From positions 1 to 38,076 of the IMG/VR virus record IMGVR_UViG_2690316068_000004: a stretch of 38,076 nt of DNA; one strand, written 5' to 3'. The position numbers and the translations under genes are program-made. Positions 1-38,076 of this stretch are shown here, piece after piece. Under the pieces are notes generated by a model that was not told the origin of the DNA, did not search any database, and saw only the letters and a program-made list of their open reading frames with translations. Origin of the DNA: a virus. Lineage: Duplodnaviria; Heunggongvirae; Uroviricota; Caudoviricetes. The stretch's first letter is position 1. Every line of letters starts with the position of its first letter.

Positions 1-858
1 ATGATGGCATTATTACTGGAGCCACTGCAGTTCACCTTTATAAGTCACGCACTGCTGATTTCACTGGTAGTTTCCATACCCTGTGCGCTGCTGTCGGTCT
101 TTCTGGTCCTGAAAGGTTGGGCACTGATGGGTGACGCGATGAGTCATGCGGTTTTTCCTGGCATCGTGCTTGCCTGGATTCTGGGGTTACCTTTGGCTAC
201 AGGGGCATTCGTCGCCGGAGTATTCTGCGCGGTGGCGACGGGATACCTGAAAGACAACAGCCGAATCAAGCAAGATACAGTGATGGGGATTGTTTTTTCT
301 GGCATGTTTGCCGCAGGTCTGATCTTGTATATTGCAGTCAAACCAGACGTACATCTTGACCATATTCTTTTCGGCGACATGCTCGGGATAACCATCGGCG
401 ATATAATCCAGACGGTGATTATTGCTGGGCTGGTTACACTTGTTATTAGCGTAAAATGGCGAGATTTTTTGCTGTTCAGCTTTGATTATCAACAGGCGCA
501 GGTAAGCGGTTTGCATACGAGATGGCTGCATTATGGGCTGCTGTGCATGGTCTCTCTGACCATTGTGGCGACGCTGAAAGCGGTAGGTATCATTCTCTCC
601 ATTTCTCTGCTCATTGCGCCTGGCGCCATTGCGGTACTCCTGACACAACGCTTTTATATTGCGCTCCTACTGGCGACTGGCATATCGGTAATAGTGTCAA
701 TGACCGGTGTCTGGCTGTCCTTTTTTATCGACAGCGCACCAGCTCCGACGATTGTCGTCTTATTCGCGGTCGCGTTCATCATGACGTTTACCGTTACCAG
801 CATCAACGCACGCACAAAGGGAAACGCCCATACACAGGATCTGTTATCACCCAATTAG
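1..858 (+). CDS. sitD: ABC-3 family metal (Mn/Fe) transporter permease, SitD/MntB-like; ORF begins at window edge so the true start may lie upstream
   Basis: 285-aa polytopic hydrophobic ORF whose sequence I recognise as SitD/MntB-type permease; ends at 858, convergent with the prophage tail fibre gene. Confidence 0.65.
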   Translation: MMALLLEPLQFTFISHALLISLVVSIPCALLSVFLVLKGWALMGDAMSHAVFPGIVLAWILGLPLATGAFVAGVFCAVATGYLKDNSRIKQDTVMGIVFSGMFAAGLILYIAVKPDVHLDHILFGDMLGITIGDIIQTVIIAGLVTLVISVKWRDFLLFSFDYQQAQVSGLHTRWLHYGLLCMVSLTIVATLKAVGIILSISLLIAPGAIAVLLTQRFYIALLLATGISVIVSMTGVWLSFFIDSAPAPTIVVLFAVAFIMTFTVTSINARTKGNAHTQDLLSPN

Positions 859-33979: not shown

Positions 33980-34056
33980 GGATTGATCCAGTAATGACCT
34001 CAGAATTCCATCTGGATTTGTTCAGAACGCTCGGTTGCCGCCGGGCGTTTTTTATT
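33980..34056 (+). ncRNA. oop: oop antisense RNA with tO terminator, overlapping the cII 3' end; 5' end approximate
   Basis: Plus-strand ...gttcagaacgctcggttgccgccgggcgttttttatt matches the lambda t0 terminator region as recalled. Confidence 0.6.
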
Positions 34057-34296
34057 GGTGAGTCCATCAAGCGCATACTTAAAAGCCCTGCTAATCGGAC
34101 TGATGTCTGATGCCATTCCGAAAGCACACAAGACCGAAGCAATAAATCTCCAGTCCGTTCTGCTTATCTTCGATTCATGACAGCCAATCATCTTTGCCAG
34201 ACCGCGCTGGGTAATAGCTGACAGATTGATAAGTAAATCTGTTTCTGCGCGATCAACGTCACGCTGTGATAGTTTGCTGTAACTTGTTCTTTCCAT
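34000..34296 (-). CDS. cII: Transcriptional activator CII, C-terminus lambda-like and N-terminal region divergent
   Basis: 98 aa ending TNKKRPAATERSEQIQMEF as in lambda CII. Confidence 0.8.
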   Translation of the reverse strand: MERTSYSKLSQRDVDRAETDLLINLSAITQRGLAKMIGCHESKISRTDWRFIASVLCAFGMASDISPISRAFKYALDGLTNKKRPAATERSEQIQMEF

Positions 34297-34653: not shown

Positions 34654-34763
34654 ATGCCCTCCATAGTAAACACGAATAAAAAATACAATATGTACTTTAC
34701 GAATACAAGTAAAAATACACATTGTGCATGGATGGTTCCAGTACAAAGCGTAATAATAAGGAC
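34654..34763. promoter_or_regulatory. OR/pR/pRM region with candidate operator palindromes
   Basis: 110-bp cro-cI intergenic region; TACAATATGTA (34684..34694) and repeated ATACAA half-sites; shares AAAGTACATATYGTA with OL. Confidence 0.6.
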
Positions 34764-35423
34764 ATGAAAATGAAATGGTATGAACTGGCTAGATCCAGAA
34801 TGAAAGAGCTCGGCATAACTCAAGAGAAGTTAGCCGAAGAGCTAGGTATGACGCAGGGTGGGATTGGACACTGGTTGCGCGGATCTCGTCATCCATCTCT
34901 TAGTGATATTGGTGTGGTGTTTAAATACCTTGGTATTGATAACATATCATTCAACCACGACGGGACATTTTCACCTGTTGGCGAATACTCATCGGCCCCA
35001 GTTAAAAAACAATATGAGTACCCTGTTTTTTCTCATGTTCAGGCTGGGATGTTCTCTCCAGAACTCAGAACCTTTACCAAAGGCGATGCGGAGAGATTGG
35101 TAAGCACAACCAAAAAAGCCAGTGACTCTGCATTCTGGCTTGAGGTTGAAGGTAACTCAATGACCGCACCAACAGGTTCCAAACCCAGCTTTCCTGACGG
35201 GATGTTAATTCTGGTTGACCCTGAGCAAGCTGTTGAGCCCGGCGATTTCTGCATAGCCAGACTTGGTGGTGATGAATTTACCTTCAAGAAACTGATCAGG
35301 GATAGCGGTCAGGTGTTTCTACAGCCACTAAACCCACAATACCCAATGATCCCATGCAATGAGAGTTGTTCCGTTGTGGGGAAAGTTATCGCCAGCCAAT
35401 GGCCTGAAGAGACGTTTGGGTGA
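34764..35423 (+). CDS. cI: CI prophage repressor (N-terminal HTH, C-terminal LexA/S24-like autocleavage domain), non-lambda immunity
   Basis: C-terminus [35 protein letters not shown] matches lambda CI; N-terminal domain differs; AAGGA RBS before ATG 34764. Confidence 0.85.
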
Positions 35424-35462
35424 TGAAACCACTTTTATCTACAATTTACAGGGCGGTAAACA

Positions 35463-36020
35463 TTGGCAAAAATAGATGATTATCAGCCAAGCCAAGTAGA
35501 AGTTGATAAAGTACTTTATTGTAAAAAAATAGTTAACTTTTCTGGCGTTAAATGGAAACAGAAACCAAGTCGCTCTGATATGTGGCTACAAGCTCATATC
35601 ATCCCCTTGGATGAGGATTGTATACCTATACAAGGGCTAAAGTTTGAACTGAAATGGAAACCAGATCAGGATTCAGAACCTGATGACCCGATTTCTTACC
35701 CTAAAATAAATATTATTGCTTTCTATCATAACAAGAGGGTTTTCGCGGTAGATACCTATCACTTTGACAAACACACGAATAGTTACAAGGTCGATCATCC
35801 GAAGTACCAAGATATCATTTACGGTGCTCACTACCATGTATACTATGAAGAAGCTGGATACTATAGTGATAGAATAGCGTTTCCAATCGAAGATGACATA
35901 AACCCAGATGACCTGGTAGGGTATTGGAATTACTTCTGTAAACATCTGAACATAACTTACTCTGGGAGAATACCTTTACCGCTTGAAGATGAGTCGGGGC
36001 AAATGGGGTTTGGAATATGA
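35463..36020 (+). CDS. Hypothetical 185-aa protein, first gene of the module in the rexA slot; TTG start
   Basis: ORF begins 39 nt after the cI stop; AT-rich; acidic, Tyr/His-rich; no TM segments or motifs recognised. Confidence 0.6.
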   Translation: MAKIDDYQPSQVEVDKVLYCKKIVNFSGVKWKQKPSRSDMWLQAHIIPLDEDCIPIQGLKFELKWKPDQDSEPDDPISYPKINIIAFYHNKRVFAVDTYHFDKHTNSYKVDHPKYQDIIYGAHYHVYYEEAGYYSDRIAFPIEDDINPDDLVGYWNYFCKHLNITYSGRIPLPLEDESGQMGFGI

Positions 36021-36769
36021 TGTGCTCAACAGTGATCTCACAACTAGGTTTCGAATGCCATCCAATAGGCAAGACCTTGAGAATTATCAGTCCATTCACT
36101 TACTGTGATGATGGAGAGCATGTCGGTGCCTTTATCCGTGAAGTCAATGGTAGGTATTTAGTTAGTGACAGATGCGATGCCTTAATGAATATGGAGGCAA
36201 GAGGGATCTCGCTTACCAAAAAACGACTTGATGAGATACGACAATTACTGCTTAAAGAAGGCGCAGAACTCAATGCTCGAGGAGAAATCATTGCTTGGGC
36301 AACAGAAAAGGATGTCGGTGCGATTACATCGAACATAATTAGAGCTGGTATACTCGCATCAACTTTGTCGTTAGACTGGTATCAGCCAGTTCAAGCTGAA
36401 AAGTTTGAAAGTATGGTTATTGATTATCTATATCACACAGAGCTTAGAGACGCACTTTCTCTTCGTGAAAACGTATATGGCTTGAGTGGACATCAAATTA
36501 CCGTCCCTGTAACAATAAAAACCGACATACCTAAATACGTTTTTACATCAAGCGTGAAACACGGAGGAAGCTGGAATAGTGCTTACTCATTGCTTGGGAA
36601 ACTAATTGATCTTAAAGCTTCAAGTGAGGAGTATAACAACAGATTTGTTGTTATAGACAGCGAAGCAATTGGTGATCAAATGCAACAACTCTCCTTACTC
36701 TTCCATGAATCAAGCCAAGTTCTACCATTCTCCAAAAGAGAGACTTGGGTTAAGAGACTTGCAGCATAA
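36017..36769 (+). CDS. Hypothetical 250-aa protein, second gene of the module in the rexB slot
   Basis: ATGA start/stop overlap with the upstream ORF; soluble; no homology recognised. Confidence 0.6.
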   Translation: MMCSTVISQLGFECHPIGKTLRIISPFTYCDDGEHVGAFIREVNGRYLVSDRCDALMNMEARGISLTKKRLDEIRQLLLKEGAELNARGEIIAWATEKDVGAITSNIIRAGILASTLSLDWYQPVQAEKFESMVIDYLYHTELRDALSLRENVYGLSGHQITVPVTIKTDIPKYVFTSSVKHGGSWNSAYSLLGKLIDLKASSEEYNNRFVVIDSEAIGDQMQQLSLLFHESSQVLPFSKRETWVKRLAA

Positions 36770-36774
36770 TACAA

Positions 36775-36800
36775 CCCGGCCTCAGCGCCGGGTTTTCTTT
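36775..36800 (+). terminator. Rho-independent terminator ending the cI operon (tImm-like)
   Basis: cccggc-ctcagc-gccggg hairpin followed by ttttcttt. Confidence 0.7.
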
Positions 36801-36972
36801 GCCTCACGTTCGCCCACCTAAAAACACATAACCAATTATATTTATTGAAAAATAAATAGATGCAACCCACTAAACCACGCAATTCTGATCTCTCCTTACA
36901 TCGCCGAGGCAATACATCCACGCTAAAAAACAACACTATTAAATACAAAGCGTTATAAAAAACCACGCCAAC

Positions 36973-37016
36973 TTACAACAAATTGTATTGATCTTGCAAA
37001 GTACATATCGTACTAT
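36973..37016 (+). promoter_or_regulatory. pL promoter with OL operators
   Basis: -35 ttgatc (36988..36993), 17-nt spacer, -10 tactat (37011..37016); operators ttacaacaaattgta (36973..36987) and agtacatatcgtact (37000..37014). Confidence 0.6.
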
Positions 37017-37205: not shown

Positions 37206-37478
37206 ATGTCCAGAAAAACAGAATTTAAAGGCACCGCAGCTTCTCGCCGTAGAGCTCGTCGCGCAAATCTGCAAAGTCAGGAGGCGATCAGCTCCGACAA
37301 GCTACACAGGCCAACCCCTTCACGAGTGGTCTTGCAATGCAAGCGCAAACCAGCAATGAGAGCAGAAGTGATAACTCTGACAACGTTGACCAGAAAATAT
37401 GAAGGTTCAACTTGTCTTCCGAACGTAGCTCTTTACGCGGCAGGCTACCGGAAATCAAAACAACTGACGGCGAGATGA
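37206..37478 (+). CDS. N: Antitermination protein N (arginine-rich motif near N-terminus)
   Basis: 90 aa from MSRKTEFKGTAASRRRARRANLQS; GGGAGGAA RBS; downstream of pL and nutL. Confidence 0.7.
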   Translation: MSRKTEFKGTAASRRRARRANLQSQEAISSDKLHRPTPSRVVLQCKRKPAMRAEVITLTTLTRKYEGSTCLPNVALYAAGYRKSKQLTAR

Positions 37479-37494
37479 TAAATTCATTTGCTAA

Positions 37495-38076
37495 TTACTT
37501 GTTTTTGCCATGCTTATCCTGAGCGATAAGTTCATCCATAAGGCTGTCTGCCTTCCCGGCAAACCTAATGTAGCACTCATGTCTATAGCTTTCAGGGATA
37601 ACGAAACGGTCGGTATCAGGATATCCAACAGCAGGAGGCCTTCGAACGAGGAGTCCTTTTTTGAGCAATGAAATTGATTCATGAGCGCCCTTTTCCGTTT
37701 GTAGCTGGTTATTAGCGGCTACAGCGAATGCCAAATACGCTCTTTCTCCAAGAGTTAACGAATCAAACAAATCTTGCACATATTTTTCTTCTTTAGATTT
37801 GCGCTTCTGAGCAGCGAATACCTCAATTCTTTCAGTCACAGCGTGATAAGCGGAATTAACAACGCCGTTAAGCACATAGCTAACGCAAAACAACAGGATG
37901 TAATACATCCAGTAATGAGGAAGGATTTCTGGATTATGCAGGTTTATCCATTCTTTTACGCTTACCGGCATAACAATAATCAATATGATCAGGATGATTA
38001 GCATATGAATCAACTGTTTAAGTGTCATTCCTTGCAGGAAAAAATGCATTAGTTCCTGCCACCATGAGTTGTTCAT
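37495..38076 (-). CDS. sieB: SieB-like superinfection exclusion protein; start is at the window edge so may be 5'-truncated
   Basis: 193 aa with hydrophobic N-terminal segments (MLIILIILIIVMPV; YILLFCVSYVL); convergent with N, where lambda sieB lies. Confidence 0.55.
   Translation of the reverse strand: MNNSWWQELMHFFLQGMTLKQLIHMLIILIILIIVMPVSVKEWINLHNPEILPHYWMYYILLFCVSYVLNGVVNSAYHAVTERIEVFAAQKRKSKEEKYVQDLFDSLTLGERAYLAFAVAANNQLQTEKGAHESISLLKKGLLVRRPPAVGYPDTDRFVIPESYRHECYIRFAGKADSLMDELIAQDKHGKNK

What the first reader, a model, noticed from the sequence alone, without database searches (positions are those of the whole stretch)
35463..36769. Unrecognised two-gene module in the rexAB slot downstream of cI: candidate lysogen-expressed phage-exclusion system
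Two ORFs (185 aa and 250 aa) sit exactly where lambda carries rexA-rexB: immediately after cI, on the cI strand, ending at a tImm-like terminator (36775..36800) upstream of pL. They are translationally coupled by an ATGA overlap, the first uses a TTG start 39 nt after the cI stop, and the DNA is visibly more AT-rich than the rest of the phage, which suggests a swapped-in cassette. Neither protein resembles RexA or RexB, has predicted TM helices, or carries any catalytic motif I recognise. By analogy this slot carries prophage defence cargo, but the function here is inference from position only.
Basis: partly seen in the sequence, partly recalled or inferred. Interest (0 to 1): 0.85.

Follow-up and report, generated by a model that had tools for sequence, protein, structure and literature searches.

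The report
Repressor-linked two-gene candidate defence cassette
Two overlapping genes sit directly behind the repressor gene of this lambda-like prophage, where lambda keeps rexAB; they form a swappable cassette from a small family that two published computational screens flag as probable anti-phage defence, but nobody has tested it and its mechanism is unknown.

Summary
Gene A (35463-36020, TTG start, 185 aa) and gene B (36017-36769, 250 aa) overlap by ATGA. They follow cI after 39 nt on the same strand and end at a strong terminator (36773-36804) upstream of pL (36988-37016). Phages with the same cI but other cargo lose homology at the cI stop codon and regain it at the first base of the terminator, so 35426-36772 is a discrete cassette (39% GC against 52%).

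The pair is not unrecognised. B is DUF1828 (YbjN/chaperone-like fold) plus DUF1829 (PD-(D/E)xK fold without the canonical catalytic triad). A is a divergent DUF6978 with no structural match in PDB or BFVD and an invariant His/Asn/His-x-His cluster. Together they are a divergent branch of PADLOC's untested candidate PDC-M24. These exact proteins (WP_001062368.1, WP_000968518.1; also in CFT073 and Nissle 1917) are listed as 'predicted novel defense gene' by DefensePredictor and were not among its screened units.

In 14 of 16 related contexts the pair adjoins a prophage repressor, in S24/cro-type and ImmR/ImmA-integrase-type lysogeny modules.

Best reading: a lysogen-expressed exclusion or abortive-infection module (about 0.55). 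The proposed mechanism is speculative. It is a new member of a known candidate kind, of moderate interest.

The parts
34728..35423 (+). cI repressor (231 aa; HTH_3 plus Peptidase_S24). It is the upstream gene of the presumed pRM operon.
   Evidence: Pfam S24 at 1.3e-28 and HTH_3 at 2e-10. Annotated as cI or a LexA-family regulator in ev207 and PhiR57_1.
35424..35462 (+). 39-nt spacer between cI and gene A, with a partial Shine-Dalgarno sequence (GGGCGG). No terminator is present.
   Evidence: Sequence. The terminator scan finds none here.
35426..36772 (+). Exchangeable cassette: the segment replaced by other cargo in phages that share the same cI and the same terminator/pL backbone.
   Evidence: BLAST break points against 2G7b (35425 / 36773) and Stx1 phage AP005153 (35421 / 36772). 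GC is 39.4% against 51.7% for the window. The identical cassette sits behind a different S24 repressor in Stx1_121427.
35463..36020 (+). Gene A, 185 aa, TTG start. A divergent DUF6978 / PDC-M24A protein, beta-rich, with no structural match. Invariant W31, H104, N106, H123, H125, F158.
   Evidence: Identical to WP_001062368.1.
36017..36769 (+). Gene B, 250 aa, ATG-ATG start overlapping the stop of A (ATGA). N-terminal DUF1828 (YbjN / type III secretion chaperone-like fold) plus C-terminal DUF1829 (PD-(D/E)xK fold with a conserved G-x-S-G-H loop, K195, D198 and R209).
   Evidence: Identical to WP_000968518.1.
36773..36804 (+). tImm-like intrinsic terminator that ends the cI-A-B unit. It belongs to the conserved backbone, not to the cassette.
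   Evidence: Terminator scan. The stem is conserved in 2G7b and AP005153 even though their cargo differs.
36988..37016 (+). pL promoter (-35 TTGATC, 17-nt spacer, -10 TACTAT) within the oL region. It marks the downstream limit of the slot.
   Evidence: Alignment to AP005153, where operators and the promoter are annotated.
37206..37478 (+). N-like antiterminator gene (context: the first gene of the pL operon).
   Evidence: Annotation of ev207 and PhiR57_1.

Best explanation
The two genes are a prophage accessory ('moron') cassette. They are most likely transcribed together with cI from the maintenance promoter in lysogens and terminated at the tImm-like hairpin. Their most likely function is to protect the lysogen against other phages by superinfection exclusion or abortive infection.

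The cassette is a divergent enterobacterial branch of the two-gene DUF6978 + DUF1828/DUF1829 module, which PADLOC lists as candidate PDC-M24.

Proposed mechanism (inferred, not shown):
- A is the effector. It is a small acidic beta-rich protein with no structural match in PDB or BFVD, and it has a putative mononuclear metal site (D97, H104, N106, H123-x-H125). Its level is kept low by a conserved non-ATG start codon.
- B is made by translational coupling in at least equal amounts. It holds A in check through its chaperone-like DUF1828 domain.
- B's DUF1829 domain has the PD-(D/E)xK fold but lacks the canonical acidic/lysine triad, and it has a conserved G-x-S-G-(H/K/R) loop. This domain would serve as a DNA- or ligand-sensing module.
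- An infecting phage would disturb the A:B complex and release A's activity.

The logic resembles RexA/RexB in ratio-dependent two-component control. It also resembles HipAD (DS-6), in which a DUF1829-containing protein partners a toxin.
For: Shown here:
- The position and signals are those of rexAB: same strand as cI, a 39-nt gap with no terminator, a strong terminator directly after B, then pL.
- The cassette is discrete and exchangeable. Its break points fall at the cI stop codon and the first base of the terminator. The identical cassette lies behind a second, unrelated S24 repressor. 237 E. coli genomes carry this cI with A-B; 1212 match this cI or its S24 part, mostly without A-B.
- A-B pairing is obligate. 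A directly precedes B in all 8 loci from other genera, including a 518-bp fragment, and in all 9 distant relatives looked up. The TTATGATG overlap is conserved in 5 of the 7 full loci.
- The pair is linked to repressors. In 7 of 7 full-length loci from other genera an S24/HTH repressor lies just upstream. Of the 9 distant relatives (18-41% identity), one contig was too short to judge. Of the other 8, 6 lie in the repressor/cro switch region (two convergent to cI; one repressor inferred from layout only) and one lies in an ImmR-ImmA-A-B-integrase lysogeny module.
- Independent defence signals exist. B matches PDC-M24B over its full length (4.7e-10), and A matches PDC-M24A weakly (4.8e-4). 60 of 77 members of the B family match PDC-M24B, down to 9e-55. 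Canonical members score 1.6e-80 and 5.5e-34.
- PDC-M24 was nominated because such cassettes are embedded in BREX, DISARM or type I RM loci.
- One chromosomal relative lies 4 kb from an AbiLi-like ATPase.
- The slot also collects PDC-S43 (DUF3024) and HicAB in relatives.
- DefensePredictor scores the identical proteins 5.64 (B) and 4.90 to 5.42 (A) against a cut-off of 4.
- Both genes are under purifying selection.

For the mechanism:
- Fold assignments.
- Conserved residues.
- Non-ATG start of A in 7 of 8 genera.
- In the validated system DS-6/HipAD, a DUF1829 protein is the predicted toxin-binding and DNA-binding partner.
Against: - There is no expression data and no phage-plating data for this pair. 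DefensePredictor did not include it among its 118 cloned units.
- PDC-M24 is itself untested.
- The overall validation rate of DefensePredictor hits was 45%.
- The match of A to PDC-M24A/DUF6978 is weak, partial, and below Pfam's gathering score.
- In two distant relatives the pair is convergent to cI rather than co-oriented. Co-transcription with the repressor is therefore not universal.
- The assignment of A as effector and B as regulator rests on analogy. No toxicity, interaction or metal binding has been shown.
- B could instead be an unorthodox nuclease.
- I could not inspect model coordinates, so the spatial clustering of A's conserved residues is inferred from strand positions only.
Confidence: 0.55

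Rival explanations
1. B is the effector. It would be an unorthodox PD-(D/E)xK-fold nuclease (DUF1829) that cuts invading phage DNA directly, in a restriction-like manner. A would act as a specificity, activating or self-protection factor.
Against: No conserved acidic residue sits at the start of strand 2 or on strand 3, where the D...(D/E)xK residues belong. The positions there are G155-x-S157-G158-H159 (H in 69%, otherwise mostly K or R), and K173 is not conserved in the wider family. In DS-6/HipAD the DUF1829 protein is the predicted non-toxic partner.
Confidence: 0.15
2. The pair is a toxin-antitoxin-type addiction module. It would stabilise the prophage or its immunity region in the host and have no dedicated anti-phage role.
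For: It has a TA-like layout: two small, translationally coupled genes, with a weak start codon on the first. HicAB occupies the same slot in one relative. The pair is kept intact in the defective prophages of CFT073 (cI disrupted) and Nissle 1917.
Against: Neither protein matches any known toxin or antitoxin family. Relatives in BREX or RM loci and next to AbiL point to defence. Many TA systems are themselves defence systems, so this rival overlaps the best explanation. The CFT073 and Nissle copies are 99.9% identical to the window, so their retention says little.
Confidence: 0.12
3. The pair is an accessory of the lysis-lysogeny switch itself. It might sense a signal and modulate repressor stability, induction or establishment of lysogeny. 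That would explain why it is tied so closely to repressor genes of unrelated types.
For: The pair shows unusually constant linkage to repressor loci across S24/cro-type and ImmR/ImmA-type modules.
Against: The same cI works with quite different cargo or with none of this kind, and the same cassette works behind a different repressor. The switch therefore does not depend on the pair. Chromosomal, non-prophage copies exist. The tested occupants of this slot named in the papers I read, RexAB and BstA, are both exclusion functions.
Confidence: 0.1
4. The pair is a lysogenic-conversion cargo that benefits the host in some way unrelated to phages, such as stress tolerance or virulence, like bor, lom or sitABCD.
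For: The same prophage carries sitABCD, and the closest phage record (ev207) also annotates ompC-like and bor-like morons. The cassette is common in extraintestinal and probiotic B2 strains such as CFT073 and Nissle 1917.
Against: Both proteins are cytoplasmic, with no signal peptide or transmembrane segment evident. Family members occur in phages of unrelated hosts and in defence-type neighbourhoods.
Confidence: 0.05

Closest known systems
PADLOC candidate system PDC-M24 (DUF6978 protein followed by a DUF1828/DUF1829 protein; Payne et al. 2024 preprint, 10.1101/2024.01.29.577857)
   Same: It has the same two components in the same order. B aligns end to end with PDC-M24B, and the B-family profile retrieves the PDC-M24B family. 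A shares the C-terminal core and the H-x-N ... H-x-H motif with DUF6978/PDC-M24A proteins. Canonical members also sit in prophage lysogeny modules.
   Different: This is a divergent branch. B scores only 37.5 bits and A only 18 bits against the PADLOC models. A is about 30-40 residues longer than the canonical members seen (157-159 aa), and the match covers only residues 104-163. The overlapping stop/start junction and the fixed place behind S24 repressors are features of this branch. PDC-M24 itself is only a prediction from embedding in BREX, DISARM or type I RM loci and has never been tested.
Lambda RexA/RexB
   Same: It occupies the same slot (between cI and tImm/pL) on the same strand, as a two-gene unit. 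It is presumably expressed from pRM in lysogens. That the cI-N interval is a mosaic hotspot holding abortive-infection genes is already established.
   Different: There is no sequence or profile similarity. Neither protein is a membrane protein, whereas RexB is a polytopic membrane protein (RexB topology and my own knowledge). The folds are different.
BstA of Salmonella prophage BTP1 (Owen et al. 2021, PMC8585504)
   Same: It is a prophage defence gene placed directly downstream of cI, sharing its promoter and followed by its own terminator. Its linkage to repressor loci is strikingly conserved across genera.
   Different: BstA is a single protein with a DNA-based self-immunity element (aba). 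There is no homology to A or B. No aba-like element was sought or found here.
DS-6 / HipAD (DefensePredictor, PMC13092281)
   Same: It is a validated two-gene E. coli defence system whose second protein contains DUF1829. That protein is predicted to bind both the toxic partner and DNA. It is the only experimentally validated setting of DUF1829 that I found.
   Different: The partner there is a HipA-like kinase, not DUF6978. The N-terminal domain there is DUF3037, not DUF1828.
Superinfection-exclusion genes of Gram-positive lysogeny modules (Sie2009 of lactococcal phages, Ltp of S. thermophilus TP-J34); recalled from my own knowledge, not checked here
   Same: Canonical PDC-M24 relatives lie between the repressor/ImmA genes and the integrase. 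This is the slot in which those exclusion genes are found.
   Different: Sie2009 and Ltp are membrane or lipoproteins that block DNA entry. A and B are soluble.
Restriction endonucleases NgoMIV, Cfr10I and PspGI, and the Can2 nuclease domain
   Different: The canonical catalytic residues are absent from B and its family. Sequence identity is 5-12%.

Membership tests
PADLOC PDC-M24 (candidate two-gene system) | Second protein matches the PDC-M24B profile (DUF1828 + DUF1829 architecture). | tested here: met
   B matches PDLC04540 at E 4.7e-10 over residues 2-249 of 250. 60 of 77 members of the B-family alignment match PDC-M24B, with best E-values of 2e-41 and 9e-55 for the two models. HHpred in DefensePredictor Table S5 gives DUF1828 at 99.5% and DUF1829 at 98.8% for the identical protein.
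PADLOC PDC-M24 (candidate two-gene system) | First protein matches the PDC-M24A / DUF6978 profile. | tested here: inconclusive
   A matches PDLC04536 at E 4.8e-4 over residues 104-163 only. It matches DUF6978 at 22 bits, below the gathering score of 29.6. 5 of 12 A-like proteins match PDC-M24A or DUF6978 models. The invariant H104/N106/H123/H125 residues are shared across the aligned A-like proteins, which include 6 upstream partners of distant B homologues.
PADLOC PDC-M24 (candidate two-gene system) | Genes adjacent, on the same strand, in the order A then B. | tested here: met
   True in the window, in 8 of 8 loci from other genera and in 9 of 9 distant relatives.
PADLOC PDC-M24 (candidate two-gene system) | Anti-phage activity. 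| not testable with these tools
   PDC systems are described as untested candidates. This pair is absent from DefensePredictor's list of screened units.
Lambda RexAB | Homology to RexA and RexB. | tested here: not met
   There is no RexA or RexB hit in PADLOC (E up to 1) or Pfam. The PHROG families are of unknown function.
Lambda RexAB | One component is a polytopic inner-membrane protein (RexB). | tested here: not met
   The maximum 19-residue hydropathy is 0.45 for A and 1.19 for B. The AlphaFold models are globular and soluble.
Lambda RexAB | Located between cI and tImm/pL on the cI strand and co-transcribed from pRM. | tested here: inconclusive
   The position and signals are met. Co-transcription is inferred only; there are no expression data.
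PD-(D/E)xK nuclease superfamily | Alpha-beta-beta-beta-alpha-beta core fold. | tested here: met
PD-(D/E)xK nuclease superfamily | Catalytic D ... (D/E)-x-K residues on strands 2 and 3. | tested here: not met
   No conserved acidic residue lies on strand 2 or 3. The conserved positions are G155, S157, G158, H159 (H/K/R), P164, W186, Y190, G194, K195, D198 and R209. Positions were judged from sequence and predicted secondary structure, not by superposition.
YbjN / type III secretion chaperone-like fold (DUF1828) | Fold similarity of the N-terminal domain. | tested here: met
Type II toxin-antitoxin systems | One protein is a known toxin fold and the other a neutralising antitoxin. | tested here: inconclusive
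   There is no match to any toxin or antitoxin family. Only the TA-like layout is present. Toxicity is not testable here.

The most novel reading that the evidence does not exclude
The DUF6978 + DUF1828/DUF1829 pair could be a mechanistically new abortive-infection system specialised for life inside the lysogeny operon of temperate phages, in both Gram-negative S24/cro-type and Gram-positive ImmR/ImmA-type modules.

In this reading a metalloenzyme with no known structural relative (A) is gated by a chaperone-like, nuclease-fold sensor (B).

In E. coli Nissle 1917 it could be the unidentified prophage-3 factor behind that strain's unexplained full resistance to lambda and Stx phages (PMC5987069).
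Probability: 0.3. Interest if true: 0.75.

Novelty: new member of a known kind. Interest (0 to 1): 0.5.

Why it matters
If the pair is a defence system, it would add a mechanistically uncharacterised occupant to the classic rexAB slot. It is present in about 4% of complete E. coli genomes, including the reference uropathogen CFT073 and the probiotic Nissle 1917, where phage resistance matters for safety and for phage therapy.

Protein A has no structural relative in the PDB or among viral models, and it carries a conserved His cluster. Its activity would therefore probably be new.

The near-constant placement of this family next to repressor genes of unrelated types suggests that a simple positional rule, 'what follows the repressor', could be used to find lysogen-expressed immunity genes.

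The general ideas are not new. The cI-N interval is a known mosaic hotspot, and these genes are already flagged as likely defensive. The value lies in a well-defined, ready-to-test candidate.

Tried and rejected
- Sequence search of both family profiles against all PDB chains gave nothing below E = 0.2.
- Foldseek of the A model against viral models gave one uncharacterised 154-aa hit.
- The AlphaFold-database library was not available.
- NCBIfam gave nothing useful.
- The search for related loci with the wide B alignment failed because no stretch was conserved enough.
- The third word-indexed homologue search, run with the wide alignment, returned almost only the close relatives already in hand.
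- Literature searches for DUF1828, DUF6978 and PDC-M24 found no functional study, and searches for the two RefSeq accessions found no paper.
- Motif ideas for A were considered and dropped:
  - HNH / beta-beta-alpha-metal: the His-Asn spacing is wrong and no helix follows.
  - Metallo-beta-lactamase H-x-H-x-D-H: absent.
- A Ser-His-Asp triad in B (S157/H159/D198) was dropped because H159 is replaced by K or R in 12 of the 77 aligned family members.
- An internal promoter analogous to lambda pLIT is not supported. Promoter-like hits in the region are no more frequent than in shuffled sequence (5 found against 7.2 expected).
- I could not obtain model coordinates, so there was no superposition on restriction-enzyme active sites and no check that A's conserved residues cluster in space.
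Full report
**What the window is.** The window is a lambda-like prophage in prophage gene order. The + strand corresponds to lambda's leftward direction. The immunity region is 99.9% identical to Escherichia phages ev207 and ev017 (genus Jouyvirus for ev207) and to PhiR57_1 and PhiR63_2. Their annotation gives the order O, cII and cro on the minus strand, then cI, two unnamed genes and N on the plus strand, then sieB on the minus strand.

**Checking the observation.** All stated features are present.
- Gene A runs 35463-36020 (TTG start, 185 aa) and gene B runs 36017-36769 (250 aa).
- The A stop (TGA, 36018-36020) overlaps the B start (ATG, 36017-36019), and a second ATG follows at 36020.
- cI ends at 35423, so the spacer before A is 39 nt and holds no terminator.
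- An intrinsic terminator with an 8-pair stem (36773-36794) and a T-rich tail follows B.
- pL maps to 36988-37016 by alignment to the annotated Stx1 phage AP005153.
- The cassette is 39.4% GC, against 46.1% for cI and 51.7% for the window.
- Neither protein has a hydrophobic segment long enough to span a membrane.
- Neither matches RexA, RexB or any other named defence protein in PADLOC.

**Both ORFs are genuine genes.**
- They match PHROG families 2017 and 1960 at E = 6e-67 and 1.6e-106.
- Homologues of 47-84% identity occur in Salmonella, Klebsiella, Yersinia, Serratia, Providencia, Xenorhabdus, Photorhabdus, Pectobacterium, Aeromonas and others.
- dN/dS against other genera is 0.05-0.19, with saturated dS.
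- The TTG start is real. The N-terminus MAK-DDY-PSQ-EVD is conserved. The same position carries GTG in six other genera and ATG in one.

**The cassette is a discrete, exchangeable unit.**
- Phage 2G7b and Stx1 phage AP005153 carry the same cI (98-99% identity). Homology to them ends at 35425 and 35421 respectively, that is at the cI stop codon. It resumes at 36773 and 36772, the first base of the terminator stem.
- The terminator and pL therefore belong to the shared backbone.
- The alternative cargo in 2G7b is a 285-aa protein plus a 163-aa hydrophobic protein. In AP005153 it is a 173-aa protein. None of these matches a defence profile.
- Conversely, the identical A-B cassette lies behind a different S24 repressor in Stx1a phage Stx1_121427. 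There homology runs from 35394 to 36902.
- Among 5,426 complete E. coli genomes, 241 carry the cassette, always as one chromosomal copy. 237 of these have this cI. 1,212 genomes match this cI or its S24 part, mostly without the cassette.
- Carriers include CFT073 and Nissle 1917, whose A and B proteins are identical to those of the window.

**What the proteins are: B.**
- The AlphaFold2 model (pLDDT 84) has two domains.
- An exhaustive profile search of 1.84 billion representative proteins found only 229 clusters at E up to 0.001, nearly all about 250 aa long.
- Distant members of this family are recognised by Pfam as DUF1828 plus DUF1829.
- A published HHpred run on the identical protein gives DUF1829 for residues 155-241, in the PDDEXK clan.
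- Across 77 diverse members the conserved positions are D51 (invariant), P26, D32-G33, G63 and G89 in the first domain. In the second domain they are F130, G155-x-S157-G158-H159 (H, K or R), P164, W186, Y190, G194-K195, D198 and R209.
- The canonical D...(D/E)xK residues on strands 2 and 3 are absent. The domain is therefore either an unorthodox enzyme or, more likely, a binding module.

**What the proteins are: A.**
- The model (pLDDT 82, pTM 0.80) is mostly beta strand.
- Among viral models it has only one match, an uncharacterised 154-aa protein.
- It matches DUF6978 and PDC-M24A weakly, through residues 104-163.
- I aligned it with homologues from other genera and with the upstream partners of six distant B homologues. 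The invariant residues are W31, H104, N106, H123, H125 and F158. R92, A95, D97, N163 and P173 are nearly invariant.
- The pattern is two His on one strand, with His and Asn on a neighbouring strand and an Asp nearby. I read this as a probable metal site. This is an inference from strand positions, not from coordinates.

**Relation to known candidates.**
- PADLOC's PDC-M systems are multi-gene 'phage defence candidates'. They were nominated because the cassettes are found embedded inside BREX, DISARM or type I restriction-modification loci, and they are explicitly untested. PDC-M24 is one such two-gene cassette.
- 60 of the 77 B-family members match PDC-M24B, with E-values as low as 9e-55. A canonical pair scores 5.5e-34 for A and 1.6e-80 for B. 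The window pair is thus a divergent branch of this family.
- DefensePredictor (Science 2026, PMC13092281) lists WP_000968518.1 (B) and WP_001062368.1 (A) as 'predicted novel defense gene'. Their log-odds are 5.64 for B and 4.90 to 5.42 for A, against a cut-off of 4. Neither accession appears in its table of screened units.
- In that study 45% of the 94 selected units validated.
- The same paper validates DS-6/HipAD. There a DUF3037-DUF1829 protein is the predicted partner of a HipA-like kinase and a weak DNA binder.

**Genomic context of relatives.**
- In all eight loci recovered from other genera, A ends where B begins.
- The seven full-length loci are from Izhakiella, Yersinia, two Providencia, Xenorhabdus, Pantoea and Thorsellia. 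In each, an S24/HTH repressor lies directly upstream and faces a cro-like gene.
- In three of these, a DUF3024 gene (PADLOC candidate PDC-S43) is inserted between the repressor and A.
- I looked up nine distant B relatives (18-41% identity). One contig was too short to judge.
  - Six lie in the repressor/cro switch region. In four the pair is co-oriented behind an S24- or HTH-type repressor gene. In one the repressor is inferred from layout only. In one the pair is convergent to cI, in both of its contigs, once alongside HicAB.
  - One lies in an ImmR-ImmA-A-B-integrase module of the Gram-positive type.
  - One is chromosomal and lies 4 kb from an AbiLi-like ATPase gene.
  - One lies beside housekeeping genes.
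- In total, 14 of 16 interpretable contexts are next to a prophage repressor.

**Interpretation.**
- The cI-N interval is already known as a mosaic hotspot that holds RexAB in lambda and BstA in BTP1.
- Three things point to a lysogen-expressed anti-phage function, and I put this at about 0.55:
  - the position and signals here;
  - the two independent computational nominations;
  - the company the pair keeps (PDC-S43, HicAB, AbiL).
- For the mechanism I propose that A is the effector and B its gatekeeper and sensor. The reasons are:
  - A has the conserved enzyme-like site;
  - A's non-ATG start codon in 7 of 8 genera, together with the coupling to B, should keep A at or below the level of B;
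  - chaperone-like folds bind partner proteins;
  - the only validated DUF1829 protein is a predicted toxin partner.
- This mechanism is inference. The main alternative within the defence reading is that B is an unorthodox nuclease.
- Non-defence rivals are an addiction module, a switch accessory and a host-fitness cargo. All are less well supported. The independence of cI and cargo argues against a role in the switch.

**Novelty and score.**
- The structural observation is right, and the positional inference is strengthened.
- The module is not unrecognised. It belongs to a named, untested candidate family, and the exact proteins are in a published prediction list.
- New here:
  - the exact cassette borders;
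  - the fold and motif description;
  - the conserved weak start codon;
  - the strong repressor linkage across unrelated lysogeny modules;
  - the presence of the pair in Nissle 1917 prophage 3. The authors who studied that strain's resistance to lambda and Stx phages concluded that a further prophage-3 factor remained untested.
- I rate it a new member of a known candidate kind, with interest 0.5.

Noticed in passing
window 34000-34296 (-), primers at 34041-34059 and 34082-34099: Bury et al. 2018 (PMC5987069) named gene EcN_1294 of Nissle 1917 the 'phage repressor pr' and reported that it partly protects MG1655 against lambda and Stx phages. Both of their qPCR primers map inside the cII-like ORF, not cI. 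The published 'repressor' is therefore the cII homologue.
   Followed up: partly
L003 2317-3174 and 3212-3703 (phage 2G7b, same cI): The alternative cargo in the same slot is a 285-aa soluble protein followed by a 163-aa very hydrophobic protein. The sizes and layout resemble RexA/RexB, but neither matches any PADLOC or Pfam family at a significant level.
   Followed up: partly
L006 5044-5385, L008 5053-5394, L009 5052-5393: In Izhakiella and Providencia prophages a 113-aa DUF3024 gene (PADLOC single-gene candidate PDC-S43; E 1e-38 in L006 and 3e-35 in L008) is inserted between the repressor and gene A. The slot therefore stacks several candidate defence genes.
   Followed up: partly
L019 3676-7649 and L020 6777-9735: In a distant relative the A-B pair lies in the same interval but convergent to the S24 repressor. 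In L019 a HicA/HicB toxin-antitoxin pair sits between them.
   Followed up: no
window 35463 and equivalent positions in L006-L012: Gene A uses a non-ATG start in 7 of 8 genera (TTG here, GTG in six, ATG only in Thorsellia). Gene B starts with two consecutive ATG codons in the window and five of those genera. This suggests selection for a low A:B ratio.
   Followed up: partly
window 1-858 (+): The window starts inside a sitD-like Mn/Fe ABC-transporter permease gene. The prophage carries sitABCD beyond its tail-fibre genes, as annotated in ev207. A very AT-rich stretch (33% GC) follows at about 1001-1500.
   Followed up: no
window 37495-38076 (-): A sieB-like superinfection-exclusion gene lies immediately after N on the opposite strand. 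The immunity region may thus hold two separate exclusion functions.
   Followed up: no
L014 2760-3461 (CFT073): In CFT073 the cI gene upstream of the cassette is split into a 198-nt HTH ORF and a pseudogene fragment, while A and B are intact and identical to the window. In Nissle 1917 the prophage is truncated by an IS3-family element right after sieB.
   Followed up: partly
L013 (518-bp contig labelled Actinomadura rugatobispora): A 518-bp contig in an actinomycete assembly encodes the end of A and the start of B at 64-82% identity to the enterobacterial genes. This is most likely contamination of that assembly.
   Followed up: no
L025 6163-6351 and L026 1340-1528: In the one relative found beside housekeeping genes, a 62-aa ORF overlaps the end of B. 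It could be a third component in that branch. It has no PADLOC match.
   Followed up: no
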